DNA of 64,000 nucleotides from a bacterium (GTDB lineage Bacteria; Patescibacteriota; Patescibacteriia; UBA9934), in contig JBDRFP010000002.1 in the NCBI GenBank assembly GCA_043818555.1, positions 16,774-80,773 on the forward strand. Direction: 5' to 3'. Position numbers and translations under genes: made by a program. Positions 3,004 to 61,080 of this stretch are shown here, piece by piece. The notes beneath the pieces were generated by a model. That model ran no database searches. It saw only the letters and a program-made list of their open reading frames with translations, and was not told where the DNA came from. Numbering within the stretch: position 1 is the first letter of the stretch; the number at the start of each line of letters is the position of its first letter.

Positions 3004-3048
3004 AATTTTACTTTTGACTTTCTGACTTTAGACTTTTTGACTTTCGAC

Positions 3049-3360: not shown

Positions 3361-3449
3361 AAATGTTATTGAGTTATTGAGTGGTTGAGTTATTGAGAGA
3401 CTAAATCACTCAATCACTAAATCACTAAATAACTGTCGTTTCGCATTAA

Positions 3450-5516
<2,067 letters not shown>

Positions 5517-5520: not shown

Positions 5521-5700
5521 ATTTTTAACCTCCTGAGGAGTTCCCACCCCTTAACCCTGAAGGTTTAACCCCTGGGGTTAAACGTTTAGCGTTAAACCCT
5601 GAGGGTTAAGAAGCCTAAACCGCCAAGGTTGGCCCACCCTACTCTTAATCAACGGCCAAAACCAGGGTTTAACCCTGAAGGTTTAATTTGGAGATAAATA
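5521..5700. repeat. Cluster of TTAACCC / GGGTTAA-type palindromic repeat units (TTAACCCTGAAGGTTTAA and variants) directly upstream of ligA
   Basis: Visible repeated units ttaaccctgaaggtttaacccctggggttaaacg...gttaaaccctgagggttaag...agggtttaaccctgaaggtttaa. Confidence 0.7.
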
Positions 5701-7968: not shown

Positions 7969-7979
7969 ATCGTAGGGCG

Positions 7980-8115
7980 TGGGATTTATTGTCGGGAAAC
8001 GATTGTTTATTATCGGCTAGCAAAGTTTATTGGCGATTTGCGAGGTTTATTGTCGGGAAGCTGGGGTTCGTTACAGACCTACAGACCGATAGATGAAGAT
8101 TATTGTCGGGAAGCT
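7980..8115. repeat. Array of five TTTATTGTCGG-like units at about 21-bp phasing between the pilin gene and pilD. Phased A/T tracts, predicted curved DNA.
   Basis: gatttattgtcggg / gtttattatcggc / gtttattggcg / gtttattgtcggg / gattattgtcggg at about 7986, 8007, 8028, 8048 and 8101. Confidence 0.65.
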
Positions 8116-8122
8116 CGACTGG

Positions 8123-8632: not shown

Positions 8633-8649
8633 AGATTTTCGGTAAACGA

Positions 8650-8745
8650 GTTTTATTGTCGGAAAACTTTGTTTATTGGCTGACGACGAAGTTTATTGCA
8701 CGGCCTACGGAGATTTATTACGAATAGTAGAATTTATTGTCAAAA
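8650..8745. repeat. Second array of five (G)TTTATTG units at about 20-21-bp phasing, upstream of the pilin gene
   Basis: gttttattgtcgg, gtttattggc, gtttattgcacgg, gatttattacg, aatttattgtc. Confidence 0.65.
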
Positions 8746-8760
8746 ACTACTGTACGCTGT

Positions 8761-10349: not shown

Positions 10350-10412
10350 ATTTCAAGCTCCAAATAACAATTTATTATTTGGATTTTGGATTTTGGAATT
10401 GATTACAGTATA

Positions 10413-13009: not shown

Positions 13010-13159
13010 CTTGTCTCCAATTGTTGTGCGAGCTTAGCCCGCGATGTAATGAACTTTCTTGTCGATTGCTGAAGCAATGACAATGACAATTACTATAACT
13101 TTGGATGAAGATTGATTTTCATTCCTTGGTCATGGTCACTGTCATAGTCATAGTTTCGT

Positions 13160-19920: not shown

Positions 19921-20197
19921 TTCCTCCGCTTTGACACTGAATTGTGACGCTAAAGTGTATCACTAAATTAGATTCCTGTCAACAAAACAACCGCCAAGGA
20001 CGGTCGTTTTATTCAAGCATCTAGAAGCCGAAGCTAAGACTGAAAAACACCATTGTAAAAGCGATTATGGCCGCAACCACTGCCCACCCTGTCCGAACCT
20101 TTGGTTGTTTTTTCATACAGATTGATTATATCAGATCGTAAATCTACTGACTACTGCCTCCTGACTTTATGACTTTCAACTTTCTGACTTTAGACTC

Positions 20198-22000: not shown

Positions 22001-22071
22001 AGGCGTGAGTAAGTAGATAGTAGTAAGTAGTCAAAGGGTACAATAAATTGGCGATTCTGTCGAGATGTTGG

Positions 22072-22116
22072 CAGGTTCAACCCTGAAGGTTGCTGCAACC
22101 TTCAGGGTTGAACCTG
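22072..22116. repeat. Perfect palindrome with 20-bp arms, CAGGTTCAACCCTGAAGGTT-GCTGC-AACCTTCAGGGTTGAACCTG, in the divergent lepA / 22181 intergenic region
   Basis: Member of the TTAACCCTGAAGGTT repeat family. Candidate operator or REP-like hairpin. Confidence 0.8.
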
Positions 22117-22180
22117 CACGCTTGACCAAATCGACCAAAACTGCTAACCTTGCCTCAGCGCCCTAACAAAGGAGACTTAA

Positions 22181-22711
22181 ATGTCGCACGAACCATTGAC
22201 TCTCGAAGCCGCCCGCGAGCGAGGACTGTACAAAATGCTCGCGTCTTCAATACGAGCGCTACAGGTAGGCAAGCATGAACTCAACCTAGGCTGGGAGACG
22301 GCCTACAATTTGGAAAGACGAGGTATCGTCTGCATCTTCCAACTGTGTGAGCTTACCCTAGATCAGTCATCCCCTATCTGCCATGCGCTAGATAGTGTGG
22401 AGATCGAATCAGCTCTAAAAAAAATTAGGCTAGGATACGGCATGAGCTTCAGCGACGAGCTCAAGCACGCTCTACTCAATGAGCCGACCCTGCTGGAGGG
22501 ACTAGACAGGGTGATCGAAGTCCTGACAGCTGAAGGAACGGCTAAGCGAACCGAACTCAATGCGCTCGACCGCGACCTAGGAGCGCTCAAGATGATCCAA
22601 CGGGAACTGACTGGCGAGGAAGAGCCAGAATCTATCGATAGAGCCAGCGATTCTGATCCGTCGCTCGATGACCTTCCGCAGGACATCTGCCCGAGAGCAA
22701 ATGGATCCTAG
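22181..22711 (+). CDS. Hypothetical protein (176 aa)
   Basis: SD AAAGGAGA upstream of the ATG. Bracketed by two copies of the AACCCTGAAGGTT palindrome. Confidence 0.6.
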   Translation: MSHEPLTLEAARERGLYKMLASSIRALQVGKHELNLGWETAYNLERRGIVCIFQLCELTLDQSSPICHALDSVEIESALKKIRLGYGMSFSDELKHALLNEPTLLEGLDRVIEVLTAEGTAKRTELNALDRDLGALKMIQRELTGEEEPESIDRASDSDPSLDDLPQDICPRANGS

Positions 22712-22752: not shown

Positions 22753-22787
22753 TTAACCCTGAAGGTTGCTGCAACCTTCAGGGTTAA
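22753..22787. repeat. Palindrome TTAACCCTGAAGGTT-GCTGC-AACCTTCAGGGTTAA between convergent genes. Probable bidirectional terminator hairpin.
   Basis: 15-bp perfect arms around the same GCTGC loop as the 22072 copy. Confidence 0.75.
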
Positions 22788-24431: not shown

Positions 24432-26018
24432 CTACTCCACCACCGTTCCCCCAAAAGCCGAGGCGAGGTTTTCGAGTGCTGCTTCTTGTTCGCCTCCGAT
24501 CATATCTGCCACGATCGTCACCTTAACTAGCATGACTTCTTCAATCGCCGCTTCCAGAATTTCAGCGTTTTTTCTCTGATTTAGAGTATCGCAATGAAAC
24601 GAATGTTCAAAGCCGATCGTTACTGAATTGCCTACCATCGATATTGGCTTAGCGCAATGCAGTACCAACGGCAATGCTATGTTGCGTCTTGAAACAGCTT
24701 CGCAGCAGCGCTTCCATTTGTTTTGTAATTCTTCGATAGAGAAAGAGACCCGCGAGGTCTCTGGGGCTCCTTGGGATTTTGAGAGAGGAGGTTGAGGGAT
24801 TTTGAGGGAATTTGAGGGAGCTTCTGAATCGGGGGGAGATTGAGGGGTGTTGAGGGATGCTGAGGGAGGTTGAATATCAGGAGGAGATTGAGGGATGTTG
24901 AGAGAGGTTGAGGGATTTTGAGGGTCGCACATCTTGACCACGACGATCTCGAGCGGTAAGTGCGGCATTGCATCTGGCGCAAGCTTAGCGCGAGCTTCCA
25001 GCATTGCGTCAATAAACTCGGCGCACCGATTAACACTCATAAATTCCATCATTGAACGCATCTTCGCAGTCGTGGCAGCGTCGTAGTGATCGTGAACCGG
25101 ACCGTCGAGAGCGAGCAAAAGCATTGTTCGGACAAGATCTATTAACTCGTCTGTCAAATTCTGCACCGACCCGCCTTGATCAACAAAATTGTTCAACGCT
25201 TCAATCCCACTCTTCGCATCGCGCCTGGCTACAGCGTCAACCAAGCCAACAACCGTTGCCGTATTAGTTACTGGTAAAATTATAGAAGCTTCCTCAACGC
25301 CAATCGTTTTCTCTCCAAGCGCCAAAATCTGCCCAAACAAACTTTCCGCATCGCGCAAACACCCCTCGGAAAGCCTGGCGATCGAGCTTAAAACTTCGTC
25401 GTCAATCTTGACTCCTTCGGATTTGGCAATCATCTTGAGCCTGTCGATCATATCCTGAGCAGCAATCCTGTGGAAATCGAATCGCTGGCAACGCGAAAGA
25501 ATAGTCTGCGGAATTTTATGAATCTCGGTAGTAGCCAGAACAAAAATCACATTAGCCGGCGGCTCCTCCAAAGTCTTCAGAAGCGCATTAAAAGCCGAAC
25601 CGGAAAGCATATGCACCTCATCGATAATGAAAACTTTGTTCTTTCCCTGACCTGGAGCAAACCGAACAGCTTCGATGATGTTCTCGCGCACGTTATCTAC
25701 TCCGGTGTGTGATGCAGCGTCGATCTCAACAACGTCGAGCGCCTTGCCGAGCATAAACTCTTTACAATGCGCGCACTTTCCACACGCCTCGTTCGCGCCC
25801 TCTGCTCGATCTTCACAATTGACTGTTTTAGCCAACAATCGCGCAATTGTAGTTTTTCCAATTCCACGCGGGCCAGAAAATAAATACGCGTGAGCAACAT
25901 TGCCGCTCAAAATTTGACTCTGCAGCGTTGTTTTTATATGCCCCTGACCAGTAACGTCACTAAAGCTTGAAGGGCGGTATTTACGGTAAATTACTTCTGT
26001 CATACCCGGATAGTACAA
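24432..26018 (-). CDS. dnaX: DNA polymerase III subunit gamma/tau
   Basis: Walker A GPRGIGKTT, clamp-loader boxes, Zn module CGKCAHC. The C-terminal part has a tandem degenerate NIPQSPPD repeat (DNA about 24690-24930). Confidence 0.9.
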   Translation of the reverse strand: MYYPGMTEVIYRKYRPSSFSDVTGQGHIKTTLQSQILSGNVAHAYLFSGPRGIGKTTIARLLAKTVNCEDRAEGANEACGKCAHCKEFMLGKALDVVEIDAASHTGVDNVRENIIEAVRFAPGQGKNKVFIIDEVHMLSGSAFNALLKTLEEPPANVIFVLATTEIHKIPQTILSRCQRFDFHRIAAQDMIDRLKMIAKSEGVKIDDEVLSSIARLSEGCLRDAESLFGQILALGEKTIGVEEASIILPVTNTATVVGLVDAVARRDAKSGIEALNNFVDQGGSVQNLTDELIDLVRTMLLLALDGPVHDHYDAATTAKMRSMMEFMSVNRCAEFIDAMLEARAKLAPDAMPHLPLEIVVVKMCDPQNPSTSLNIPQSPPDIQPPSASLNTPQSPPDSEAPSNSLKIPQPPLSKSQGAPETSRVSFSIEELQNKWKRCCEAVSRRNIALPLVLHCAKPISMVGNSVTIGFEHSFHCDTLNQRKNAEILEAAIEEVMLVKVTIVADMIGGEQEAALENLASAFGGTVVE

Positions 26019-26232
26019 CTTCGAATGATGCCAACGGTAAACTGTGGCATCAAAGTTGTAGAGTTAAATATGATTTTATCTAAAAGGTGGCTCTCAACTC
26101 GGCACTATCAACCCCTTAATATCGAAGTTGTACTACCGAGCATACGGGAAGCATTTTAACATAAGACGGCGAAAAAACAAAAGTAGACAGCTACTGACTA
26201 CTGTCTACTGACTACTGGATGCTAGTTGCCGA

Positions 26233-28764
26233 TCACAAACTCGGCGGAACAGGCTCAGCCGTTGTAGGCTTTGACATTCCAATCCCGGCCCTAATCCTAA
26301 TCTCGCGGTCAACAATATCTCTTGGACGGCCATAAGTCAGGCGCGAGATCTCCTTAAGAGCATCGGCAAGCTTTTTGTTCGGCTCGCCTGGCCATTCCGT
26401 TTTAAGCGTGTAAGGCTTTAACAACTTTTCATTTGCAACAGTTTTTGCATTCCAAGTAAACTTTCCTGTGTTCATTAAGTCGTAAGGGCTAAATGTAGGC
26501 TCAAACACCTTGGCAAGAACCTCAACATCGTCCGGACCAATCCGCGCCGATAACATGCTGCCAACGTTACCAAGCACAGCGTCGCGAATTTCCGTCCTGC
26601 CACTCTCATCAGTCAATTGCCCCATGTACTGATGCGCAAGAATTAGGTTCAACTTGTATTTTCGAGCCTCGGACAAAATAGTCGCAATCGACGGAGTAAT
26701 ATAATTTTGGAACTCGTCAATATAGAGGTAAAAGTCCCTGCGTTCGTCTTCTGGAATGTCTGCCCTGCTAAACGCTGCCATTTGCAATTTGGAAATAAGA
26801 ATGAGCCCGATTAGATTTGAGTTCACTTCGCCGGTTTTACCTTTGGACAAGTTAACTAGCAAAATTTTACCCTCGTCCATAATTTCGCGAAAATTGAAGG
26901 CGCTATTTTTCTGCCCAATAATATTGCGCATCATCTCGTTTTCCACAAACCTACCAACCTTAGAAACCAGGTAGCCCATAGTTTCCGACTTATGGTAATC
27001 GCTCGTTTTTGCCATTTCGTCCTCCCAGAAACTTCGTACAACAGGATCCTTAACGCGCGCAATCCATTTGGCCTGGAACTTATCGTCAGCGATAATCCGC
27101 GGAATTTCGATCAAAGTCCCTGTGTCAGACAAGTCGGCCATCAAGGTCAGCATGAAGTTCCTCATGTAGTGCTCAAACATTGGCCCCATTGTTTCCGGCG
27201 GGAACAGCATATAAAAGATCGAGATCATTTCCTGCACGGCAAAGTCGCGCATGTTCTCATCTGGCGCCTCAAGCATATTCAAGCCCATTGGCCGCTCAAT
27301 GTCTGACGGGTTGAAGTAGATAACATCGTCGATTCTATTCTTTGGGATTTGACCAAGCACAGCATCGGCCAAGTCGCCATGCGGATCAAGCACAGCCACG
27401 CCTTTCCCTGCCTTAATGTCCTGATTAATCAGTGAGCGCAAAAAGACCGATTTACCTGTACCGGTTTTACCAATGATGTAAAAATGTCTTCGGCGGTCAG
27501 AATCCCCAATGAATACATCGGTTCTAACTCCGCGATATTCGTTGTATCCAAGACGCAAACCCTCCTTGGCTATCTCCGGTGGCACAGGCGCCACGCGCGA
27601 TTCCAGCCAGCGAATGTTTGGGGTCTCCGTTGACGCCAAAGGCAAATGCCACAAGCTAGCCATTTCCTCAGTGTTCAAAACAATACTGTACTTTGGATTA
27701 AAGCCGCGGTAAATAAAATCTCGAACTATCCTAGATTTCTTATTTGGAATCTCAGCACTAAAAGCATTGCCGTATTCGTAGATATTAAATTGGTTGAACG
27801 CCTTCAGGGCACCGTCCAAATCTTCCTTAACCGACTGAGCGCTCTTGCCCGACGCTACAACTCGAATATTGGCCTCTATCCCGGCCTTGGTCATCTTGGC
27901 CTCGATGCGCTGCGACATCTGCTCTTCAGCCTGAGTCAGCTTCCTTGGCTCTTCCGGCTTGTCTTTATCTTTCGACTTAAACATGTCTTTCCAGGTCGAT
28001 TTACCCTTCAGCGCATCTTCAAACGACATGCCCTTGTTCATGTTTTTGACCACCTTTTTGCCCAAGCCCCGCCAGCCCGGGCGAGCCGAGCGAACAATGT
28101 ACTGGATTGCCACGCCCTCGCCTTCGCCGATCTTTGAAAGCGCGTTGGTAATTCCATCGAGCGGATCAGACTCACTCTCCTTGTAGGTCTTCACCGGCAA
28201 CATGGACTGACGCTTAAAATTCAAATACCCGCCGGCAACAGTGGAAGTCGGCGTGAACAAGTTATAATCTTCAACCGGCTCAATTGCCGCGTCAGGATAC
28301 TGCGCATGCAACTGCTCCTCAATAAAGTCCCTCATGTACACCGGAACTGTCACATAAAAATCGATCATTTTGTCGATTACGACAATCTCCAAAGCCAACG
28401 AATCGGTCCTGCCAAAAAGCCATGCGCTAAAACCCTTCTGAGCTGTCAAGCCACCGATCGCGCTATAAAATGTCTCGGCAATTGCAATGTCTTCCTGCCA
28501 CTGCGCTATTGTGGCATCGCCCTTAACATCTCCTTCGGTTACAAACTTTGGCACCAAAACTTGCAAAGTGATGTTTTGATACTGCCCGCCGTGAATATTG
28601 CGGTTTTTCTGCAGAAAGTGTCGCAATAGGTAAACCGACCCCACTGCTGCAAAAATTATTAGCGCTACTGTAATCAAAATCGTAAGTGCCTGAAAAGCAT
28701 CAACCTGTGTGAAAGCGGGCTGAGTTGGAGCGCCTACTGTGATTTGGATCAATCCGATGTACAT
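26233..28764 (-). CDS. Fused membrane-domain plus VirD4/TraG/TrwB-like P-loop ATPase (type IV coupling-protein-like), 843 aa
   Basis: The N-terminal 400 aa are homologous to the 560-aa protein at 51759..53441 (LHAQYPDAAIEPVEDY versus LYAQYPEAQMLEVEDY). The C-terminal ATPase is homologous to 49518..51635 (RRRHFYIIGKTGTGKS, LDPHGDLA). Start set to ATG 28764. The track N-terminus MGIHWELIVGHWSL comes from reading through a conserved leader. Confidence 0.75.
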   Translation of the reverse strand: MYIGLIQITVGAPTQPAFTQVDAFQALTILITVALIIFAAVGSVYLLRHFLQKNRNIHGGQYQNITLQVLVPKFVTEGDVKGDATIAQWQEDIAIAETFYSAIGGLTAQKGFSAWLFGRTDSLALEIVVIDKMIDFYVTVPVYMRDFIEEQLHAQYPDAAIEPVEDYNLFTPTSTVAGGYLNFKRQSMLPVKTYKESESDPLDGITNALSKIGEGEGVAIQYIVRSARPGWRGLGKKVVKNMNKGMSFEDALKGKSTWKDMFKSKDKDKPEEPRKLTQAEEQMSQRIEAKMTKAGIEANIRVVASGKSAQSVKEDLDGALKAFNQFNIYEYGNAFSAEIPNKKSRIVRDFIYRGFNPKYSIVLNTEEMASLWHLPLASTETPNIRWLESRVAPVPPEIAKEGLRLGYNEYRGVRTDVFIGDSDRRRHFYIIGKTGTGKSVFLRSLINQDIKAGKGVAVLDPHGDLADAVLGQIPKNRIDDVIYFNPSDIERPMGLNMLEAPDENMRDFAVQEMISIFYMLFPPETMGPMFEHYMRNFMLTLMADLSDTGTLIEIPRIIADDKFQAKWIARVKDPVVRSFWEDEMAKTSDYHKSETMGYLVSKVGRFVENEMMRNIIGQKNSAFNFREIMDEGKILLVNLSKGKTGEVNSNLIGLILISKLQMAAFSRADIPEDERRDFYLYIDEFQNYITPSIATILSEARKYKLNLILAHQYMGQLTDESGRTEIRDAVLGNVGSMLSARIGPDDVEVLAKVFEPTFSPYDLMNTGKFTWNAKTVANEKLLKPYTLKTEWPGEPNKKLADALKEISRLTYGRPRDIVDREIRIRAGIGMSKPTTAEPVPPSL

Positions 28765-28794
28765 GCTACTAAATAGGCAATCTTGAAGTGACAC

Positions 28795-28881
28795 TAATGA
28801 CCAATGCCCAACTATCAATTCCCAATGAATCCCCAATATCCAACCCCTAATTGGTTATTGGGTACTTGTGAATTGGTCATT
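28795..28881. repeat. CCAAT-box-rich leader element copy A, inverted-repeat bounded (TAATGACCAATG ... GAATTGGTCATT). It contains a 43-nt block identical to copy B.
   Basis: taatgaccaatgcccaactatcaattcccaatgaatccccaat is identical at 28795-28837 and 51642-51684. Confidence 0.8.
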
Positions 28882-29358
28882 CTACTGTTTCTCGATATAA
28901 TTCAAAACCTTGTCTGTCCTAATCTTCGCCTCCTGCTCTAAGAAAAACTTATTCACACCCGGAATCATTTTTAGCCAATCGCTAATAAGCTTTAATACTT
29001 TTCGAGCCGTAATTTTGCCCTTATCAACCATTTCTTTGATGGCCGCAGCGACTTCCTCACCCCTTTGTTTGAAAGCTGGCCTTCTATCTGCCGGAAGCGC
29101 AAGGAAAATATCGGTAAGGTCATCGGCAAGAATCTCTTCAATGTCTTCGGTGACTTTATCTTTCTCTGGCCTTATCGATGACGGCTGAGCAGTCGGCGTC
29201 TCCGCGACCTCGACAACCGGCGCTTCTTTTTTCTCTTTTACCTCTTTCACTTTTTTCACCTCTTCCACCTCCGCAAGCTCTTTCACCTCCCCAACCTCAA
29301 CAACTTCCGGCTTTTCCGAAAGTGCTTCTTTTTTCTTTGGCTTCATTGCATCTGCCAT
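28882..29358 (-). CDS. Hypothetical Lys/Glu-rich protein (158 aa)
   Basis: Low-complexity KE-rich N-terminal half (VKELAEVEEVKKVKEVKEKKE) and a structured C-terminal part. Confidence 0.55.
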   Translation of the reverse strand: MADAMKPKKKEALSEKPEVVEVGEVKELAEVEEVKKVKEVKEKKEAPVVEVAETPTAQPSSIRPEKDKVTEDIEEILADDLTDIFLALPADRRPAFKQRGEEVAAAIKEMVDKGKITARKVLKLISDWLKMIPGVNKFFLEQEAKIRTDKVLNYIEKQ

Positions 29359-29386: not shown

Positions 29387-29416
29387 AACCCTAAAGGTTT
29401 CTGAACCTTTAGGGTT
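29387..29416. repeat. Variant palindrome AACCCTAAAGGTT-TCTG-AACCTTTAGGGTT downstream of cysS. Terminator-like.
   Basis: 13-bp arms. Variant of the same family with TAAAGG in place of TGAAGG. Confidence 0.7.
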
Positions 29417-29418
29417 GT

Positions 29419-30804: not shown

Positions 30805-30924
30805 AGCGGTGTGCGAGAGTTAGTAGGAAGTAGGTAGTAGGAAGTAGGTTTGGATGCAGGTATTATAGCCGAGTTTTACGTAAAAGTTAAGGTTTCAAAG
30901 GTTTCAAGGGTCGCAAAGGTTTCA

Positions 30925-32042: not shown

Positions 32043-32136
32043 GCTGTCGCGGGGTGTTACAAACCTACAAAATTCAACCCAAAAACCGGGTGGCAGATCC
32101 CGGTTTTATCTAATCCTACTGGCTACTGGCTGCTGT

Positions 32137-32982
32137 CTACTGACTACTTTCATTAACTGGCGGCTGACTGCTGTACATGCCCTGCCCGCGCTCGATTGGC
32201 GGCTTTGGGAATCGTGGTTTTTCAAATACAGGCTTTGGTTCTCCTTCAACATGCTCAGGCGGTACAAAATCTTTTGGCAAATCCTCAGGCCGTACGAAAT
32301 CATCCGGCAACTTTGGAGGCGCTCCAAACATGTGCATCTGCGGCATTATCGCCTGCCTTTCTTCCGGAGTCAAATCAGCCTCGTTAATCTTCTCCTGTAG
32401 CGCCTGCATTTTTTCATCAATTTCCCCAGGCGATGGTCTGCGGTCAATATTATTGACAAATACGGTTTCAAACAGATGGTTGTAACGAAGATTCTGCGCT
32501 TGCAAACGGTCAATTAACCCTCTTCGAAATTCAAGATCGTCCCTGGCGCGAATCAGCTCATCAACAGTAACATCCAGCTCCTCGGCGATCTTCTCAAGAT
32601 GCCCCGGACCCAACCGCTCTTCGCGCATCATCACCTCGCCCTCAGCAATTCGGCGCTCCATCATGCGCGCATGAAACTCCGCAGCGCCCTCTGGGGAACG
32701 AGGCAACAACGCCTCTACAGCTTCAATCCCCCGCTTGAACGGATGCAGAAAATGACCTTGCGTGACTTCCGGACTTGCGTACGCATAACTCCCCATGCCC
32801 ATGGTCACCAACACGACTACCAGAGCCACTGGCATTGCAAGCGCGCGCTTGAACGAAGGCCTGTTTGCCGGATATTCGCGGCCAAACTCATCGCCAAGCT
32901 CGCTTGCAAGAGCGTTCTTAAATCCACGCTCAGGCTTTCCGGCCTTTTTAATTTCTTTTAAGTTTCGTTTGATTTCTTTCAT
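32137..32982 (-). CDS. Putative anti-sigma factor (single-pass membrane protein downstream of the ECF sigma gene)
   Basis: 281 aa with one TM helix (AMPVALVVVLVTMGMGSYAYA). Positioned immediately after the sigma factor gene. Pro-rich C-terminus. Confidence 0.45.
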   Translation of the reverse strand: MKEIKRNLKEIKKAGKPERGFKNALASELGDEFGREYPANRPSFKRALAMPVALVVVLVTMGMGSYAYASPEVTQGHFLHPFKRGIEAVEALLPRSPEGAAEFHARMMERRIAEGEVMMREERLGPGHLEKIAEELDVTVDELIRARDDLEFRRGLIDRLQAQNLRYNHLFETVFVNNIDRRPSPGEIDEKMQALQEKINEADLTPEERQAIMPQMHMFGAPPKLPDDFVRPEDLPKDFVPPEHVEGEPKPVFEKPRFPKPPIERGQGMYSSQPPVNESSQ

Positions 32983-33797: not shown

Positions 33798-33866
33798 GGG
33801 GGTAATCGGATCGCGAAGGGGTTAATCGTAAACAAGAGTTCACAGTTAACAGTTCACAGTTCAGCG
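33798..33866. repeat. GGGGGTAATCGGATCGCGAAGGGGTTAATCG plus GTTCACAGTTAACAGTTCACAGTTCA heptad element, copy 1 (upstream of the ECF sigma gene)
   Basis: Near-identical to the element at 35453..35567. On the gene strand it reads as tandem TGAACTG heptads. Confidence 0.75.
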
Positions 33867-33959
33867 ACTTGCAATTTTCTACTTATGACTTGAAACATTT
33901 GACTTTAGACTTTCCGACTTTAGACTAAATTAAACCCGGCCGTAACGACCGGGCTAGAA

Positions 33960-35876: not shown

Positions 35877-35965
35877 GTCATTGCGAGGAGCCCTGCAACT
35901 CGGCGACGAAGCAATCTACGCGCTAGATCGCTTCGCTAAACGACAAGCAGCCACTCGCGATGACG
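35877..35965. repeat. 89-bp nested-palindrome element, copy A (outer arms GTCATTGCGAG/CTCGCGATGAC, inner arms CGAAGCAATCTA/TAGATCGCTTCG), downstream of dnaJ
   Basis: About 85% identical to the copy at 38360..38448. Candidate structured RNA or complex terminator. Confidence 0.8.
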
Positions 35966-36045
35966 AAAAACTATTTTTCTCGCGTAAATCCAATCCCTCA
36001 ACTAACTTATTCTCCATCTTACTCCGATCGTCCTAAGACGGTAAA

Positions 36046-38359: not shown

Positions 38360-38448
38360 GTCATTGCGAGGAGCTCAGAAACTCGGCGACGAAGCAATCT
38401 AACGAGTAGATTGCTTCGCTAAACGACAAACGACCACTCGCAATGACG
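38360..38448. repeat. 89-bp nested-palindrome element, copy B, directly downstream of dnaK
   Basis: GTCATTGCGAGGAGCTCAGAAACTCGGCGACGAAGCAATCTAACGAGTAGATTGCTTCGCTAAACGACAAACGACCACTCGCAATGACG. Confidence 0.8.
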
Positions 38449-38456
38449 AATTAAAT

Positions 38457-40373: not shown

Positions 40374-40384
40374 AATGTTTCAAT

Positions 40385-40465
40385 TACGAATGTTTATTTC
40401 CCAGCCTGCGGAGTTTTATTCCGGCTTGCCGAGTTTTATTCCTTAAAGCTTAGATTTATTGTCGA
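40385..40465. repeat. Four phased TTTATT(G/C) units (about 21-bp period) upstream of dnaK
   Basis: tgtttatttcc / agttttattcc / agttttattcc / gatttattgtc. Confidence 0.55.
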
Positions 40466-40490
40466 ATAGGTCGTATGGGTCCTATAGGTC

Positions 40491-41728: not shown

Positions 41729-41739
41729 AAGACAAATTT

Positions 41740-41850
41740 CCAATTCACAAGCACCCAATCCCCAATGAATTCCCAATGTCCAATCTCCAATTGGTCATTG
41801 GTAATTGGATATTCATTGTATATTGGCTAGTTGGTCATTGGACATTACTC
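41740..41850. repeat. CCAAT-box-rich element copy C (shares CCCAATGAAT(T/C)CCCAAT and CTTGTGAATTGG with the two T4CP-gene leaders), between CIRCE and the hrcA start
   Basis: caattcacaagcacccaatccccaatgaattcccaatgtccaatctccaattggtcattggtaattgg. Confidence 0.7.
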
Positions 41851-41855: not shown

Positions 41856-41882
41856 TTAGCAGTCAGTATTATAGACTGCTAA
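41856..41882. promoter_or_regulatory. CIRCE-like operator (TTAGCAGTC-N9-GACTGCTAA) upstream of hrcA-grpE-dnaK
   Basis: 9-bp inverted repeat with a 9-nt spacer, one-position variant of the consensus TTAGCACTC-N9-GAGTGCTAA. Confidence 0.8.
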
Positions 41883-42067
41883 GTTTGAACCGTCAAGTTT
41901 TTAGACCTACAGACTACAGATTTTTTTGGATTTACAGATCGAAAAACTCGTACTTCATTCTGTATATCTGTAAGCAATCAGTAGTCTGTAGGAAATAAAA
42001 AATCCCCTCAGCAATAAGCTTCGGGGACCAGACACTCTTCGTCAAGACTCCTAGAAAGAGGGATGCC

Positions 42068-45226: not shown

Positions 45227-45327
45227 GGGAGTTCGTTACAGACCTACAAACTGTACAGACTTACAGACTGATTGCGTATTTTTTGATTGTCGGTTCGTAG
45301 GTTCGTATAGTCTGTAGTTCTGTAACG

Positions 45328-46477: not shown

Positions 46478-46612
46478 TTAACCCTCAGGGTTAAACCTTC
46501 AGGGTTAAACCTTCAGGGTTAAGAGTGTAATCTTGCTAAAATTAGCCAAGCCCATGCTTAAATGGTGGTCAAAATGTATTGTTAACCTTCAGGGTTAAAC
46601 CTTCAGGGTTAA
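46478..46612. repeat. Array of AACCTTCAGGGTTAA units (three tandem copies, a 53-bp unique insert, then two tandem copies) downstream of the HD-domain gene
   Basis: ccctcagggttaaaccttcagggttaaaccttcagggttaag...gttaaccttcagggttaaaccttcagggttaaaa. Confidence 0.8.
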
Positions 46613-46643
46613 AAATCCGCCCCGAGTTAACGGAGCGGATAGG

Positions 46644-48779: not shown

Positions 48780-48871
48780 GCAAAAATTCTAAATTCGAAA
48801 TCCTAAATTCTAAATAAGCTCAAAATTATAAATTCGAATTTTGGATTTATTTAGAGTTTAGAGCTTTGGAT

Positions 48872-49528
48872 TTAGAGTTTCTCAGCAACCCAGTTCACTA
48901 CGTAGTCGAACAACTCAGGGTCGTTTTCAAACATAGTTGTACCATGGCCAATTCCTGACTTTTTAACCAGCTCGACCTGATCAGGCTTTAGCTCTCCGAG
49001 CTTCAATATTGACTTAAACGATGTTTCATCTTCCTCGCTTGCAACTAAAAGCACGCGCTGTTCGTCGGCAAGCTTACCGATCTTGTCATCAGTTGTAACT
49101 CCTCGATAATCTACCCCAGGCGAAAGCGCAACTGCGGCCGGCATTCTGGCCTCCACGGCCATCTGAATTGCTAAATTTGCTCCAATTGACGCCCCAACAA
49201 CTACCGTTTTTTCAACTACTGCTCCTCGACGTTTAAGCTCCTCCCACGCCGCGCGCGCATCCAAAATCTTCGCCTGCTGCTCGGCCTCAGTAAACTCCTT
49301 GTACCCGCCAGGACCACCTTCGCTGGCACCGTGCCCTCGCTCGTCAATAGCAATCGATGCCACTCCACGCCCTGCAAGCGCAGCGGCAAACCCAGCCCAG
49401 CTCTCCTTAGTGGCCGGCATCATATGCAAAAGGATCGCGTATTTTTCACCTTCAGCAGGGTAAAAATCAGCCGCGATCGTCTTGCCGTCTTTGGTTGTGA
49501 GTCTTATCTGCTCCATGCTAATCACCAA
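48872..49528 (-). CDS. Alpha/beta-hydrolase fold protein
   Basis: 218 aa. Nucleophile elbow GASIG and an HGxxM-type C-terminal motif. Confidence 0.6.
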   Translation of the reverse strand: MVISMEQIRLTTKDGKTIAADFYPAEGEKYAILLHMMPATKESWAGFAAALAGRGVASIAIDERGHGASEGGPGGYKEFTEAEQQAKILDARAAWEELKRRGAVVEKTVVVGASIGANLAIQMAVEARMPAAVALSPGVDYRGVTTDDKIGKLADEQRVLLVASEEDETSFKSILKLGELKPDQVELVKKSGIGHGTTMFENDPELFDYVVNWVAEKL

Positions 49529-51635
49529 AAGACAAAATTTCGTTCGGCCTCACGCTTTGCGCGCCGGTAATAGCCGACCCCCTGTCGTCAGTCCTTTCCC
49601 GATCACTGGCTCCACTAGCCCCACTAGCTCCTTTAGCTCCACTGGCTCCTCCCCGATCACTAGCCCCTTCACGATCGCCAGCAGATCTCTTTTTGTTTCT
49701 ATTCCTTCTTTTCCGCTTCCTCGGAACCTGCCGTTGATCATCCTGCCTACTCTCATCAGCTCGATCCCTAGCTCCTTCGCGATCACTAGCTCCTTCGCGA
49801 TCACTAGCTCCGCTAGCCCTGCTAGCCCTACTAGCTCCTTCGCGATCATTCTCTCCTTCTTCTACTTTCTTCTTCAACAAATCACCAGCCTTAATTTCCG
49901 GCTCCGTTTCCTCTTTTATCTCAACTATTTCACTTTCTTTCACCTCTTTCGCTTCTATCGCCTTTTTCGCCTCTGCCTCCTGACCTTTAGCCCTACTAGC
50001 CCAATTAGCCCCTCCCCGATCACCAAGCGCGCTCAACCCAATTTCCTCCCCAACCTTTTTCTCAATAACCTCGCCCTCCTCTACTTTTGGCGGCCTATCA
50101 ACAACTGTTTTCTCTTTACGGTCGTCAGGCTTCTGCTTCCTTCGATTTTTTGACTTCTCGCGCTCTTCTTTAATAATCGGTACACAATCTTCGCAATAAA
50201 TCGGCCGTTCGCGATCAAGCTGAACAGGCAACTTAAACACCTTACTGCAACGCGTGCAGGTGTACTCATGCGAAAATCGTTCCTGTTTTACAGCCTTTTT
50301 TAGATCTTTCGCAGCTTTCATTTCTTTTTCCAAATCAACATCATCTCCAAACCCGCTCCACTCTGCCACATGCTTTTCAATAGCGACCCGATCGCCGGCA
50401 AAGCGCTCGCGCGACTGGTCGATTACCTTTTGCTCGCTTCCAGTTCTGACAGCAATAGGATGCAGCGTTACGGCAGAAAACGGCTGGCTTGTGATTCCGT
50501 CGATCATCAACTTTACATAAACCTGAAACTTGGCAAGGTTGACCAAATCCTGCGGAATAAACCTTGGCATAAACTCATCCTCCATAAACTGAGCGTCAGG
50601 CGAGCCAACACGAAAACTGATCAGCGTACCAATGTTACCAAACACGGCATCGCGGACTTCTTCGCTGAGCTGAGCAATAAACTGGTGAGCCATCACAAGA
50701 TTCAAACGGTACTTTCGAGCCTCGCTCAAGATCGCAGCAAAAGATTCGTTTGCAAAGTTTTGAAATTCGTCAACATAAACATAAAAGTCCTGTCGTTCGC
50801 TTTCCGGCATGTCAACGCGCTCCATTGCAGCCATCTGAATTTTGGTGATTATCATTCCGCCGAGGAGCCGCATGGCATCTTCACCAATCCGGCCCTTGGA
50901 CAAGTTCACAATAAAAATCATCTGATCGTCCATTATTCTGCGCGGATTGATTGACGACTTTGCCTGGGCTACAATATTTCGAATAATAGATGCGGAAAGA
51001 AACTGACCGACCTTGTTTTGAATAGGCGCCACAGCTTCGGACGCAAATTTGCTCTGGTAGGACTCAAATTCTTTAATCCAGAACTGCTTAATTATCGGGT
51101 CCTTAACATTGCCGATTATAATTTTTCTGTAATCAGCGTCAGAAAGTAGCCTGTTGATTCCCAAAAGCGTACTGCCAGGCGTTTCAAGAAGAGCCAAAAT
51201 AGTATTATTCAAAATGTACTCCATTCGGGCACTCCAGACATTTTCCCAAATCTTTTTGAACACGCTCATCATTCCGGCTGCAACAAGATGGCGCTGAGTG
51301 TCGTCGACCGATTCGAGAATGTTAAAACCGACCGGATAATTCAAATCTGCCGGGTTAAAGTAGACAACATCGTTAATTCTCCAACTTGGGATGTAGTCAA
51401 GCAGGCGCTCAGCAGTGTCGCCATGCGGGTCAATGTAGCAGCAGCCGTGACCGGCATAAATGTCTGCAAGAATCATGTTTTCGAGCAGAGTCGTTTTTCC
51501 AACACCGGTTTTTCCAATTATATACATGTGCCGACGGCGGTCGTCGGTTTTAATCCCAAATTTCCGCATTTGATTGCGGAAGTTCGTCTTTGCAAAATAG
51601 ATGACGTCGTTTTCGTGATCGTGTTCGTATCTCAT
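49518..51635 (-). CDS. VirD4/TraG/TrwB-like P-loop ATPase (type IV coupling-protein-like / T4SS DNA-binding-domain family), 705 aa
   Basis: Walker A YIIGKTGVGKTT, DPHGD, Walker B-like ..VDEFQNF. C-terminal Cx2C...Cx2C zinc ribbon, then a highly charged tail with tandem repeats (REGASRASRASGASDREGASDREGARD; DNA about 49560-49860). Start set to ATG 51635. Confidence 0.75.
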   Translation of the reverse strand: MRYEHDHENDVIYFAKTNFRNQMRKFGIKTDDRRRHMYIIGKTGVGKTTLLENMILADIYAGHGCCYIDPHGDTAERLLDYIPSWRINDVVYFNPADLNYPVGFNILESVDDTQRHLVAAGMMSVFKKIWENVWSARMEYILNNTILALLETPGSTLLGINRLLSDADYRKIIIGNVKDPIIKQFWIKEFESYQSKFASEAVAPIQNKVGQFLSASIIRNIVAQAKSSINPRRIMDDQMIFIVNLSKGRIGEDAMRLLGGMIITKIQMAAMERVDMPESERQDFYVYVDEFQNFANESFAAILSEARKYRLNLVMAHQFIAQLSEEVRDAVFGNIGTLISFRVGSPDAQFMEDEFMPRFIPQDLVNLAKFQVYVKLMIDGITSQPFSAVTLHPIAVRTGSEQKVIDQSRERFAGDRVAIEKHVAEWSGFGDDVDLEKEMKAAKDLKKAVKQERFSHEYTCTRCSKVFKLPVQLDRERPIYCEDCVPIIKEEREKSKNRRKQKPDDRKEKTVVDRPPKVEEGEVIEKKVGEEIGLSALGDRGGANWASRAKGQEAEAKKAIEAKEVKESEIVEIKEETEPEIKAGDLLKKKVEEGENDREGASRASRASGASDREGASDREGARDRADESRQDDQRQVPRKRKRRNRNKKRSAGDREGASDRGGASGAKGASGASGASDRERTDDRGSAITGAQSVRPNEILSFGD

Positions 51636-51641: not shown

Positions 51642-51760
51642 TAATGACCAATGCCCAACTATCAATTCCCAATGAATCCCCAATCCCCCAATTCGATCTT
51701 CAATTGGTTATTGTGCATTGGATATTCATTGGTCATTGGGTTTTTGTGAATTGGTCATTT
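51642..51760. repeat. CCAAT-box-rich leader element copy B (TAATGACCAATG...CATTGGTCATTGG...GAATTGGTCATTT), between the 560-aa gene and the ATPase gene
   Basis: 43-nt block identical to copy A. Internal inverted repeats. Confidence 0.8.
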
Positions 51761-53441
51761 AAATTGGTAGATTCTCAGGTCCTGATTCTTGACCGATTGG
51801 TTCATCAGCTAAATCTAATCCCGGCGGCAACGGAGCCGGCATGCCAGCTTTTGGCATGTATTCGCCTTCTACGATTTGATTAACCCCCGCGTCATACGAT
51901 TCAACCTCCGCGCTTTTCGAAATAACCCCCTCATCTTTTGTCAAACCCCCTTCAACTCCTAAACTCGGCGTTGGCACAACAAGCGGTTTTGGCTCAGGGA
52001 GTTTTTTATGCACTGTAACGCCTGCGGCAGCCTGCACATCCGGCGATACACGGTCCAAATTCGGCAAGGTAGGATCGTCGGCCCCTGCAAATTCAAGCTC
52101 GCTAGGGGCTTCCGCGCGCCGCGCGCCAATACTTGTCAACACCGGCGTTCGAGCGTCAGCGGCCGGGAAGTGGAACAAAGTCGCAAGTTCCTCACAGTTC
52201 AAAATGTACGGTGTTGCGCCAGCGCCAAACGAACGATTCTTATATCGCTTAATCAGCCGGCGCTGTTTCATTGGCATCTGCCAGAGCATGTAAAAATAAT
52301 CATCCTTTGGAGTTGAAGGAATGTGCAAACCAAATTTATTCATTCCCAAGTGACCGTACTGGTGGAAAATACCTTTAATCATTGAAGCCGCGGTCCCCTT
52401 GCGGAAAACATCTTTTTTACCACAATAAACAACCCTGATCTTTGTGAGCCAGCCGATTGATCCAGTTTTCCGCGAAACCGAATCAATTAGTTCTTTTTCG
52501 TCAGGCGTAATCCTAAACATTGCCCAGTTATCTGCCGATTTTTCTTCTGCTGAGGCCGCGCCCATCCCAATTGCCTGGCTCAAGAGTTCCTGAGGCACCC
52601 AGCCGACAGCTTCTGCCAAAAAGCTCTTTTTCTTTAGCTCTTCCTTCCCAAACTTGCTATTAACAAACTTTTCGCCTTCTTTAATCCAACCCTGACTGTC
52701 CGGTTGCATAACCAAAAGCTGAATCCAAAAATGCTCACCGGGACGCATTTTCCCCAAAATCTCAATTACTCCAAGAAGCGGATCTTTAAACCGCTGATCT
52801 TTTTCGCCCTGATGTTCGAACAGATCCCAGGTTTTGATTGGAACATACTGTGGCTTCTTTAGCATCATCTCCGTACCAAAACAATCGTATTCCTCATGCG
52901 GGTAATCGTTAGGGATCAGATCAACATAGTCCTCCACTTCGAGCATCTGAGCTTCCGGATATTGGGCGTAGAGCGATGCCTCCAAGAGGTCGCGATACTT
53001 GTCGGTTGTTCGAATGTAGAATTTAATGTGCCCACCGTTGCTTACAATTTCAAAAGCAAAATATGATTGGAACTTTCCCCAAAACCACTTTTCCTTCCAT
53101 GTGATTGACGATTTTGATCCGGCAAGGTTGGTAAAAAAGTTCGCCATTCCCATTGGGGTTTGGATGGCGTCCTGCGGCACACTGATTTCGTACAGGGTCC
53201 ATTTAAACTTTTCCCAGTACTGAACCTGCTTGCGGAAAAGCCAAACTTCTGAGAAGCCCCAAATGGCCACAGCAAAAATCGGCACCCACCCAATTGCCAA
53301 AAGGATGTGCGCGCCCATTACCTCCACAGGCGTTGTGGCAAGGTACTGTTCGATTGCAGCCGGAAGAGCTATAAACACTCCGATCATAATGAGATTATTA
53401 TAGCATATTGCGAGAGTAGACAGTAGGGACGCTGTATGCAA
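51759..53441 (-). CDS. Membrane-anchored partner protein of the T4CP-like ATPase (560 aa), homologous to the N-terminal half of 26233..28764
   Basis: N-terminal TM helices and a conserved LYAQYPEAQMLEVEDY block. Precedes the ATPase gene on the same strand. Confidence 0.65.
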   Translation of the reverse strand: MHTASLLSTLAICYNNLIMIGVFIALPAAIEQYLATTPVEVMGAHILLAIGWVPIFAVAIWGFSEVWLFRKQVQYWEKFKWTLYEISVPQDAIQTPMGMANFFTNLAGSKSSITWKEKWFWGKFQSYFAFEIVSNGGHIKFYIRTTDKYRDLLEASLYAQYPEAQMLEVEDYVDLIPNDYPHEEYDCFGTEMMLKKPQYVPIKTWDLFEHQGEKDQRFKDPLLGVIEILGKMRPGEHFWIQLLVMQPDSQGWIKEGEKFVNSKFGKEELKKKSFLAEAVGWVPQELLSQAIGMGAASAEEKSADNWAMFRITPDEKELIDSVSRKTGSIGWLTKIRVVYCGKKDVFRKGTAASMIKGIFHQYGHLGMNKFGLHIPSTPKDDYFYMLWQMPMKQRRLIKRYKNRSFGAGATPYILNCEELATLFHFPAADARTPVLTSIGARRAEAPSELEFAGADDPTLPNLDRVSPDVQAAAGVTVHKKLPEPKPLVVPTPSLGVEGGLTKDEGVISKSAEVESYDAGVNQIVEGEYMPKAGMPAPLPPGLDLADEPIGQESGPENLPI

Positions 53442-59889: not shown

Positions 59890-59936
59890 AAGATACATTC
59901 GCTACAGACAGCCTCGTAGAAATGCTGAGGTAATAT

Positions 59937-61041: not shown

Positions 61042-61080
61042 ATATTATTTACTTAGGGTATATTCCATAACGCTCAACGT

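What the first reader, a model, noticed from the sequence alone, without database searches (positions are those of the whole stretch)
26233..28881. Two paralogous T4CP-like ATPase loci: one fused, one split, sharing a 43-nt identical leader
The 843-aa product of 26233..28764 is collinear with the 560-aa membrane-domain protein (51759..53441) plus the 705-aa VirD4/TraG/TrwB-like ATPase (49518..51635). The same module therefore exists once as a gene fusion and once as two genes. The block TAATGACCAATGCCCAACTATCAATTCCCAATGAATCCCCAAT is 100% identical at 28795-28837 and 51642-51684. It sits just upstream of the fused gene start and, at the split locus, just upstream of the ATPase gene in the gap after the 560-aa gene. 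Perfect 43-nt conservation between diverged paralogs implies strong selection on a cis element (promoter, operator or structured 5-prime leader) or recent gene conversion.
Basis: seen in the sequence. Interest (0 to 1): 0.7.

Follow-up and report, generated by a model that had tools for sequence, protein, structure and literature searches.

The report
Intergenic repeat hairpin, not conserved leader
The identical 43 bases are one arm of a small hairpin-forming repeat that recently spread into gene junctions of this uncultivated Patescibacteria genome, including the junctions in front of two anciently duplicated secretion-type ATPase genes, so they are not a conserved control element of those genes.

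Summary
Both observations are real. The 43-mer is exact at 28795-28837 and 51642-51684. The 843-aa protein is collinear with the 542/560-aa protein plus the 705-aa ATPase.

The window is chromosome of a Patescibacteria (Uhrbacteria-like) MAG. The fused form and the split form are two old paralogues, and both are conserved in related genomes in housekeeping neighbourhoods.

The "leader" reading fails. The 43-mer is the 3' arm of an 86-117-nt imperfect palindrome built of degenerate CCAAT/ATTGG heptamers. A third copy lies in the hrcA 5'UTR. In relatives both junctions are tight. The p158|fused gap has a median of 3-5 nt in 73 loci, and the DUF8128|ATPase gap ranges from -4 to 132 nt in five relatives. 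None of these carries the element.

Genomes whose junctions do carry hairpins are the ones rich in 7-8-nt tandem repeats overall. The identity therefore reflects recent copying or gene conversion inside a lineage-specific dispersed repeat family, comparable to ERIC, Correia or cyanobacterial STRR/SDR elements.

One refinement came from structure prediction. The N-domain (DUF8128) has the fold of the VirB4 N-terminal domain, so these "orphan T4CPs" have a VirB4-like architecture.

Interest is modest. Two things remain unexplained: the element sits in front of both ATPase genes, and all three copies are in frame with the downstream gene.

The parts
28796..28881 (-). Element A. An 86-nt imperfect palindrome of CCAAT.../...ATTGG heptamer-like units with a 10-nt terminal inverted repeat AATGACCAAT/ATTGGTCATT. 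It starts 1 nt after the TAG stop of the 158-aa gene and ends 31 nt before the ATG of the fused gene. Its left arm is 25 nt shorter than in element B.
   Evidence: (RNA fold -31.3 kcal/mol, z -2.85)
28795..28837 (-). The reported 43-mer, copy 1. It is the 3' arm of element A as read on the coding strand.
51643..51759 (-). Element B. A 117-nt full-length copy of the same palindrome. Its first A is the last base of the TAA stop of the DUF8128 gene, and it ends 7 nt before the ATG of the ATPase gene.
   Evidence: (-42.3 kcal/mol, z -3.70)
51642..51684 (-). The reported 43-mer, copy 2. It is the 3' arm of element B.
41735..41846 (-). Element C. A diverged third copy (about 70% identical to B), located in the hrcA 5'UTR. 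It lies between the TTGACG-17-TATAAT promoter with its CIRCE-like operator (41896-41856) and the hrcA ATG (41728).
   Evidence: D9, D14; I1; -42.1 kcal/mol, z -3.77
26233..28764 (-). Fused paralogue, 843 aa. It has one N-terminal hydrophobic helix (aa ~27-48), a DUF8128 domain (about aa 60-400, VirB4-NTD-like fold) and a P-loop ATPase (Walker A GKTGTGKS at 432, Walker B YLYIDE at 679).
28882..29358 (-). 158-aa acidic protein with no known family. It is the conserved upstream partner of the fused gene (73 of 80 related loci) and normally abuts or overlaps it.
51759..53387 (-). Split paralogue, N part: a 542-aa membrane-anchored standalone DUF8128 protein. The ORF is open up to 53441.
49518..51635 (-). 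Split paralogue, ATPase part: 705 aa with no hydrophobic segment. Walker A is GKTGVGKT at 41 and Walker B is YVYVDE at 285. The C-terminal tail carries a CxxC-x17-CxxC zinc finger and low-complexity repeats.

Best explanation
The 43-mer is the gene-proximal arm of a small (86-117 nt) imperfect palindromic repeat built from degenerate heptamers, (CAATNNN)n on one arm and (NNNATTG)n on the other. The repeat belongs to a lineage-specific family of dispersed intergenic elements in a Patescibacteria genome whose non-coding DNA is saturated with 7-8-nt tandem-repeat hairpins.

Two nearly identical copies (B full length; A with a 25-nt slippage-type deletion in the far arm) were recently placed, or homogenised by gene conversion, in two operon junctions that are normally tight: p158|fused gene and DUF8128|ATPase gene. 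A third, older copy lies in the hrcA 5'UTR. The sequence identity is therefore young and belongs to the repeat family. It was not inherited from the ancient gene duplication.

Shown:
- the anatomy of the element and its three copies;
- its absence from orthologous junctions;
- the correlation between junction hairpins and genome-wide repeat richness.

Inferred:
- The elements are co-transcribed and fold into a stable stem-loop (-31 to -42 kcal/mol) in the polycistronic mRNA or 5'UTR.
- At most this uncouples translation or alters mRNA stability and processing, as ERIC, REP and Correia elements do.
- The mode of spread is unknown.

The genes themselves are two old, core-genome paralogues of a membrane-anchored ATPase with a VirB4-like layout: a VirB4-NTD-like DUF8128 domain plus a VirB4/T4CP/HerA-type motor. 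One is fused and one is split, and neither is next to T4SS genes.
For: - Hairpin anatomy and the third copy.
- Orthologous p158|fused junctions have a median gap of 3-5 nt. 66 of 73 are 59 nt or less and at least 10 are 4-nt overlaps (10 or 12, depending on which start codon is taken). Only 7 are 120 nt or more, and those carry assorted other repeats.
- DUF8128|ATPase junctions in relatives are -4, 36, 49, 76 and 132 nt, none with the element.
- An nhmmer profile of A/B/C finds only these three copies in the window. In 1.0 Mb of relatives' loci it finds one weak hit, L053 (E 2.7e-5).
- Arrays of period 6-9 per 10 kb: window 5.0; L056, L053 and L039 (whose junctions carry a tandem array or hairpin) 7.6, 5.5 and 5.4; median 0.69; 41 of 85 sources have none.
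- 24 of 32 such arrays lie in the 12.6% of the window that is non-coding.
- Many other dispersed exact intergenic repeats of 19-31 nt exist.
- The paralogues are only 42% identical at protein level, while orthologues of the ATPase are 82% identical. No ancestral DNA identity can have survived the duplication.
- Both paralogues co-occur in related assemblies.
Against: - Two of the three copies sit directly in front of the two paralogous ATPase-domain genes. The only CCAAT/ATTGG cluster in the relatives' loci (L053) is again at the p158|fused junction. This is post hoc, but unlikely for random placement.
- The arms of A and B are 74/76 identical while the 11-17-nt centres differ. In A the 3' arm is intact although 25 nt of the opposite arm, pairing with part of it, are deleted. 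This could mean sequence-specific constraint on that arm.
- All three copies are in frame with the downstream ATG, and B and C have identical 48-nt spacing.
- Only 64 kb of the genome could be examined, so the genome-wide copy number is unknown.
- No target-site duplication or transposase was found.
Confidence: 0.7

Rival explanations
1. The element is a co-opted cis-regulatory RNA or DNA element. A hairpin placed just 5' of the start codon would coordinate expression of the two ATPase paralogues, and of the hrcA-grpE-dnaK operon. It could act as a protein-binding site, a processing site or a temperature-sensitive structure.
For: - Non-random placement: two of three copies are in front of the paralogous ATPase genes and the third is in a stress-operon leader.
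- L053 carries a CCAAT-type hairpin at the same junction.
- The 3' arm is perfectly conserved although part of its pairing partner is deleted in A, and the centres have diverged.
- The folds are more stable than shuffled controls (z -2.9 to -3.8).
Against: - The element is absent from nearly all orthologous junctions, including the closest available relatives (66-70% protein identity).
- No Rfam family matches.
- The start codon itself is not sequestered in the predicted folds.
- Other intergenic regions carry equivalent hairpins made of unrelated units.
- With three sequences the covariation evidence is nil: covariation term +0.45 and 2 compensatory pairs.
Confidence: 0.15
2. The 3' arm is translated. 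The true starts would be the in-frame TTG inside the element, giving both ATPase proteins (and HrcA) a shared N-terminal peptide LGIHW(E/G)L..., or an in-frame upstream initiation site.
For: The ORFs run open from TTG 28836, 51683 and 41776 into the annotated ATGs. All three are in frame, with spacings of 72, 48 and 48 nt.
Against: - Orthologous ATPases start at MRYEHD or MKYPHD with no such extension.
- HrcA begins with the typical MLSDRQ.
- NCBI annotates the 843-aa form.
- Two of the three frames of the arm are open anyway, so the a priori chance is about 1/27.
- A peptide encoded inside a stable stem is unlikely to be initiated efficiently.
Confidence: 0.05
3. The repeat is an assembly or collapse artefact, or a chimeric join at a repeat.
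For: The source is a metagenome-assembled genome, and the repeat is short enough to confuse small k-mers.
Against: - The two copies have unique flanks and differ in the other arm and in the centre.
- Gene order across each copy is exactly the conserved order in relatives: cysS..p158|fused|dnaX and secDF|DUF8128|ATPase|bacA.
Confidence: 0.02

Closest known systems
ERIC/IRU elements of enterobacteria, and REP/BIME elements (own knowledge of the literature)
   Same: They are imperfect palindromes of about 40-130 nt confined to transcribed intergenic regions, often inside operons. Copies are dispersed, some with internal deletions. They form mRNA stem-loops that can affect the stability of neighbouring cistrons.
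   Different: This element is built of degenerate heptamer tandem units. It occurs in a Patescibacteria genome. No RAYT-type transposase or IHF/gyrase site was seen. Only three copies were visible.
Correia/NEMIS and other bacterial MITEs (own knowledge)
   Same: They have terminal inverted repeats (here 10 nt, AATGACCAAT/ATTGGTCATT), insert next to genes, are co-transcribed, and have full-length and internally deleted variants.
   Different: No target-site duplication is recognisable at A, B or C. No parent IS element was found. The centres are more diverged than the arms.
Cyanobacterial STRR heptamer repeats and the small dispersed repeats (SDR) nested in them (Mazel 1990 and Elhai 2008, recalled from memory; not retrievable)
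   Same: The units are 7 nt and include the same words CCCCAAT and TTGGTCA. They are restricted to non-coding DNA. Small hairpin elements are nested inside heptamer arrays; compare L053, where a CCAAT core sits inside AATTTCT/AGAAATT arms.
   Different: The phylum is different. Here the arrays are mostly arranged as inverted arms that form hairpins. No link between the two systems has been demonstrated.
Type IV coupling proteins (VirD4/TrwB/TraD)
   Different: - All NCBIfam T4CP models score far below cut-off.
- There is one hydrophobic helix rather than two.
- A ~350-aa VirB4-NTD-like domain lies between the anchor and the motor.
- There is no relaxase or T4SS neighbourhood.
- The genes sit in core-genome synteny with cysS/dnaX and secDF/bacA.
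- Literature: 5,713 such homologues were found in 2,918 Patescibacteria genomes, only 148 near virB4, and exaptation was considered possible (PMC12102498).
VirB4/TrwK ATPases, and standalone VirB4-NTD-like TrsD
   Different: There is no sequence-level match of DUF8128 to PDB or to Pfam CagE_TrbE_VirB. NCBIfam VirB4 models score 20 bits or less. No VirB3, VirB6 or VirB8 gene is nearby.

Membership tests
Conserved structured 5' leader / riboswitch-type cis element of the ATPase genes | Presence at the orthologous position in related genomes | tested here: not met
   Absent from 73 p158|fused junctions (median gap 3-5 nt) and from 5 distinct DUF8128|ATPase junctions.
Conserved structured 5' leader / riboswitch-type cis element of the ATPase genes | Match to a described RNA family, or covariation supporting the structure | tested here: not met
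   No Rfam hit other than two tRNAs. In the three-sequence alignment the covariation term is +0.45 and 2 of 28 pairs are compensatory.
Dispersed intergenic palindromic repeats (ERIC/REP/MITE-like) | Multiple copies at unrelated intergenic sites in one genome | tested here: met
   Three copies in 64 kb, one of them in the hrcA 5'UTR. The genome-wide number could not be obtained.
Dispersed intergenic palindromic repeats (ERIC/REP/MITE-like) | Imperfect palindrome able to form a stable stem-loop, with defined ends | tested here: met
   Fold energies are -31 to -42 kcal/mol with z -2.9 to -3.8. There is a 10-nt terminal inverted repeat, and identity stops sharply at both ends.
Dispersed intergenic palindromic repeats (ERIC/REP/MITE-like) | Target-site duplication or a cognate transposase (for MITE or REP-RAYT membership) | tested here: inconclusive
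   No flanking direct repeat is visible at A, B or C. No transposase was found among the 43 largest ORFs scanned against Pfam. The rest of the genome was not available.
STRR-like heptamer tandem repeats | Tandem units of about 7 nt confined to non-coding DNA, many loci per genome | tested here: met
   There are 32 arrays of period 6-9, and 24 of them lie in the 12.6% of the window that is non-coding. The same pattern is seen in some relatives.
Type IV coupling protein (VirD4/TrwB/TraD) | FtsK/HerA-clade P-loop motor with Walker A and B, matching T4CP profiles | tested here: met
   Pfam TrwB_AAD_bind scores 38-43 bits against a 20.5 cut-off. Walker motifs are present. TrwB gives E 1.7e-7.
Type IV coupling protein (VirD4/TrwB/TraD) | Membership of a curated T4CP equivalog or subfamily | tested here: not met
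   The best NCBIfam match, SXT_TraD, scores 49-50 bits against a cut-off of 366. All others are also far below cut-off.
Type IV coupling protein (VirD4/TrwB/TraD) | Genetic linkage to a relaxase or a VirB4-type T4SS | tested here: not met
   None was detected among the 43 largest ORFs of the window scanned against Pfam, nor in the related loci whose called genes carry Pfam annotation. Neighbours in 80 related loci are cysS, p158 and dnaX. Literature gives the same picture for Patescibacteria (PMC12102498).
VirB4 family | N-terminal VirB4 domain followed by a RecA-like ATPase domain | tested here: met
VirB4 family | Sequence-profile membership (Pfam CagE_TrbE_VirB, TIGR00929) | tested here: not met
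   None of the 45 DUF8128 members hits PF03135. TIGR00929 scores 18-19 bits against a cut-off of 643.

The most novel reading that the evidence does not exclude
Two linked readings remain open.

(a) The CCAAT/ATTGG hairpin may not be placed at random. It may be a structure-specific mobile or recruited element that targets, or is retained at, the junction immediately 5' of the ATPase-domain genes, in frame and at fixed spacing to the start codon. That would make it a lineage-specific post-transcriptional control shared by the two paralogues and hrcA.

(b) The 'orphan T4CPs' found about twice per Patescibacteria genome may form a distinct, core-genome VirB4-like ATPase family (DUF8128 = VirB4 N-domain fold). 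It would exist as one fused and one split paralogue, with its own small partner protein (p158), and would work independently of any T4SS.
Probability: 0.2. Interest if true: 0.6.

Novelty: new member of a known kind. Interest (0 to 1): 0.3.

Why it matters
As a regulatory discovery it does not hold up. A perfect 43-nt match between diverged paralogues turned out to be a young repeat, which is a useful caution for sequence-only scans of repeat-rich genomes.

Two by-products are worth recording:
- Some Patescibacteria genomes are saturated with heptamer-based intergenic hairpins that invade otherwise tight operon junctions. This resembles cyanobacterial STRR/SDR elements, and I could not find it described for this phylum.
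- The widespread 'T4CP homologues' of Patescibacteria, whose role is an acknowledged open question (PMC12102498), carry a VirB4-N-domain-like module. They come as a conserved fused and split paralogue pair in housekeeping neighbourhoods. This narrows hypotheses about what these motors do.

Tried and rejected
- **Source genome.** Exact-protein look-ups for four window proteins found nothing on record. The rest of the MAG (contig of 105,802 bp) could not be read.
- **Collection scans with the 21-mer GATAGTTGGGCATTGGTCATT.** Genome contigs gave 0 hits and metagenome contigs gave 0. Viral contigs gave 1 hit, a chance match inside a coding region with no CCAAT arms.
- **Split-locus orthologues.** A metagenome scan with the DUF8128 protein gave only 2 loci.
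- **Known RNA and signal models.** Rfam, sigma-70 promoter and intrinsic terminator scans found nothing on the coding strand at either copy.
- **Literature.** Searches for DUF8128 and for tandem-repeat hairpins or STRR in Patescibacteria returned nothing relevant.
- **Sequence link from DUF8128 to VirB4.** A PDB profile search and a Pfam scan of 45 members at E up to 1 gave none; the link is by fold only.
- **p158 as a relative of the DUF8128 protein.** Rejected.
- **L053 junction hairpin as a true family member.** The alignment is weak. I treat it as the same kind of element, not the same element.
Full report
**Observation.** The 43-mer occurs exactly twice, at 28795-28837 and 51642-51684, with none expected by chance. 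It is the longest exact dispersed repeat in the window. All genes concerned are on the minus strand. On that strand copy 1 ends 30 nt before the ATG of the 843-aa gene (26233-28764). Copy 2 ends 6 nt before the ATG of the 705-aa ATPase gene (49518-51635).

The protein collinearity is real:
- Fused aa 90-402 aligns with aa 94-453 of the 560-aa ORF (26% identity, E 1e-21).
- Fused aa 412-792 aligns with aa 27-393 of the ATPase (42% identity, E 3e-101).
- The 560-aa ORF is annotated elsewhere as 542 aa.

**What the window is.** The neighbours are housekeeping genes, almost all on one strand. They include lgt, gatA, ligA, pilD/pilM, recJ, lepA, mnmA, dnaX, cysS, a sigma factor, dnaJ, dnaK, grpE, hrcA, a Na/H exchanger, bacA, secDF, maf and two tRNAs. 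The best protein matches are Patescibacteria, mostly Candidatus Uhrbacteria. An identical protein from an NCBI MAG lies on a 105,802-bp contig. This is chromosome, not a plasmid or conjugative element.

**The two loci are old, conserved paralogues.**
- The fused architecture (DUF8128 PF26449 plus TrwB_AAD_bind/DUF87, about 835 aa) gave more than 4,150 hits.
- The standalone DUF8128 protein (about 420-600 aa) is also a large family: 184 hits, and 3,857 50%-identity representatives at E up to 1e-3.
- Both forms occur on the same long contigs and assemblies. One example is L001 and L081 of GCA_018664485.1.
- Synteny is conserved. In 80 loci the order is cysS ... p158 | fused | dnaX, with p158 directly upstream in 73 and dnaX downstream in 55. 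For the split pair the order is secD(PPIase)-secF | DUF8128 | ATPase | bacA.
- Orthologues of the ATPase are 82% identical to the window protein, whereas the two paralogues are 42% identical. The duplication long predates these lineages, so no DNA identity can have been inherited from it.

**What the 43-mer is.** Read on the coding strand, each intergenic region is an imperfect palindrome. Its left arm is made of CCAAT-containing heptamer-like units and its right arm of ATTGG units. It is bounded by a 10-nt inverted repeat, AATGACCAAT ... ATTGGTCATT.
- Element B (51643-51759, 117 nt) is full length.
- Element A (28796-28881, 86 nt) has the same ends. It lacks 25 nt of the left arm, a deletion between CAAT repeats, and it has a different 11-17-nt centre. 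Outside the indel and the centre the two are 74/76 identical by my reading. MAFFT places the indel differently.
- The 43-mer is simply the right arm.
- A third, roughly 70%-identical copy (C, 41735-41846) lies upstream of hrcA. It sits between a TTGACG-17-TATAAT promoter carrying a CIRCE-like TTAGCAGTC-N9-GACTGCTAA and the hrcA ATG, so it is in a 5'UTR.
- The predicted RNA folds are -31.3, -42.3 and -42.1 kcal/mol, with z scores of -2.85, -3.70 and -3.77.
- A profile of the three finds no further copy in the window.

**Test of the leader hypothesis.**
- In 73 related loci the gap between the p158 stop and the fused-gene start has a median of 3-5 nt. 66 gaps are 59 nt or less, and at least 10 are 4-nt overlaps (10 or 12, depending on which start codon is taken). 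Only 7 are 120 nt or more, and those hold assorted other repeats.
- The DUF8128|ATPase gap in five distinct relatives is -4, 36, 49, 76 and 132 nt. None has the element, including the closest one available at 70% protein identity.
- Clusters of CCAAT/ATTGG occur at the three window sites only. No cluster of four or more closely spaced motifs occurs in 1.01 Mb of relatives' loci.
- There is no Rfam family, no sigma-70-type promoter and no intrinsic terminator on the coding strand.

The element is therefore an insertion into two junctions that are normally tight or overlapping. It is not a conserved leader.

**Genomic background.**
- The window's non-coding DNA is full of tandem arrays of 7-8-nt units, often arranged as two complementary arms. 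Examples are 3361-3449, 10350-10412, 45227-45327 and 48780-48880.
- 24 of 32 arrays of period 6-9 lie in the 12.6% of the window that is non-coding.
- Several other dispersed families exist, such as the AACCCTGAAGGTT palindromes and a 91-nt repeat.
- Among relatives the array density is patchy. The median is 0.69 per 10 kb and 41 of 85 sources have none.
- The window has 5.0 per 10 kb. L039 and L053, which also carry a tandem-repeat hairpin at the p158|fused junction, have 5.4 and 5.5. L056, whose junction carries other hairpins and a tandem array, has 7.6.
- L083 shows a hairpin of yet another unit at the DUF8128|ATPase junction.
- Junction hairpins therefore track genome-wide repeat richness, not the gene.

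**Most likely mechanism.** This is a lineage-specific dispersed palindromic repeat, functionally comparable to ERIC, REP/BIME or Correia elements. In composition it resembles cyanobacterial STRR/SDR sequences; the words CCCCAAT and TTGGTCA are shared (from memory). It recently copied itself, or was homogenised, between sites. Because all three copies lie in transcribed spacers, they should form stem-loops in the mRNA. I infer at most an uncoupling of translation or an effect on mRNA stability. How the element spreads is unknown. No target-site duplication or transposase was seen.

**What remains odd.**
- Two of three copies precede the two paralogous ATPase-domain genes. The only CCAAT-type cluster in the relatives' loci (L053, nhmmer E 2.7e-5, weak alignment) is again at the p158|fused junction.
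- The arms of A and B are near-identical while the centres differ. A keeps an intact right arm although 25 nt of the opposite arm, which pair with part of it, are deleted.
- All three right arms are in frame with the downstream ATG, at 72, 48 and 48 nt.
- These points keep a co-opted regulatory role alive at about 15%, and a translated extension at about 5%. Orthologues lack any such N-terminal extension.

**The proteins.**
- The ATPase domains carry Walker A and B motifs and pass the Pfam T4CP family thresholds. They fall far below every curated NCBIfam T4CP or VirB4 cut-off.
- TrwB is the only PDB sequence hit.
- There is no sequence-level link from DUF8128 to VirB4.
- Each N-domain protein has one N-terminal hydrophobic helix, and the 705-aa ATPase has none.

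The module therefore has a VirB4-like layout, with a motor that profile searches call a T4CP. A 2025 survey reported 5,713 VirD4-like T4CP homologues in 2,918 Patescibacteria genomes. Only 148 were near virB4, and the authors suggested possible exaptation (PMC12102498). That is about two per genome, which fits the fused and split pair seen here. Their function is unknown. Among the ORFs scanned, the window shows no T4SS or relaxase partner.

**Verdict.** The shared 43-mer is a young copy of a dispersed hairpin repeat, not a selected leader of the paralogues. It is a new member of a known kind of element, of modest interest, with two side observations worth following up.

Noticed in passing
window 3004-3050, 3361-3449, 10350-10412, 13075-13154, 20144-20196, 22008-22031, 26190-26225, 30822-30848, 32116-32148, 33837-33926, 45227-45327, 48780-48880, 56948-57046: Non-coding DNA is saturated with tandem arrays of 7-8-nt units, many arranged as complementary arms that fold into long hairpins. 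Each locus has its own unit: AGTAG/CTACT, CAGAC/GTCTG, AGTCAAA, AAATTCT and others. 24 of 32 arrays lie in the 12.6% of the window that is non-coding. Some distant relatives (L039, L053, L056) are equally rich, while most have none.
   Followed up: partly
window 41856-41896: hrcA has a textbook TTGACG-17-TATAAT promoter whose -10 box sits in the spacer of a perfect CIRCE-like inverted repeat, TTAGCAGTC-N9-GACTGCTAA. Element C is inserted between this operator and the start codon.
   Followed up: partly
window 28836/28764, 51683/51635, 41776/41728: All three hairpin copies are in the same reading frame as the downstream gene, so mechanical ORF calls extend into them (shared LGIHW...). Copies B and C have the identical 48-nt distance from the TTG to the ATG.
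   Followed up: partly
window 53874-56828: SecD carries an inserted PPIase (rotamase) domain and is fused to SecF in a single 984-aa ORF. In relatives, SecD(PPIase) and SecF are two adjacent genes.
   Followed up: no
window 49518-50400 (C-terminal third of the 705-aa ATPase): The C-terminal tail has a CxxC-x17-CxxC treble-clef-type zinc finger (aa 455-485). It is followed by low-complexity GASDRE-type repeats encoded by 9- and 18-nt tandem repeats (49604-50011). This tail is absent from the fused paralogue.
   Followed up: no
window 35877-35967 and 38360-38450; L038 about 3900-4060; L067 about 2870-2990: A 91-nt repeat, GTCATTGCGAGG...CTCGCAATGAC, occurs twice at 86% identity. Elements of the same flavour occupy the p158|fused junction in two other genomes.
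   Followed up: no
window 7969-8122, 8633-8760, 40374-40490: Arrays with a period of about 20 nt carry a CGACAATAAA-like core. They lie in three intergenic regions, two inside the pilus gene cluster and one between dnaK and grpE.
   Followed up: no
window 5550-5690, 22071-22117, 22753-22787, 29387-29417, 46478-46613, 59860-59893, 61067-61112: A second dispersed family consists of (T)TAACCCTGAAGGTT palindromes. It includes a 31-nt exact pair flanking the plus-strand ORF 22181-22711.
   Followed up: no
window 28882-29358 and L001-L080: A small acidic 158-aa protein with no family assignment is the conserved upstream partner of the fused ATPase gene. It has a C-terminal motif WLxMIPGVNKFFLEQEAKIK and is present in 73 of 80 loci, usually abutting or overlapping the ATPase gene.
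   Followed up: partly
window 26019-26232: Downstream of the fused gene, a heptamer-repeat hairpin (AGTAGACAG...CTGTCTACT) is followed by a T-run. It looks like an intrinsic terminator built from repeat units.
   Followed up: no
window 24785-24930 (inside dnaX): A 48-nt / 10-nt tandem repeat (TTGAGGGATG-like) lies within the coding region of the DNA polymerase III gamma/tau gene.
   Followed up: no
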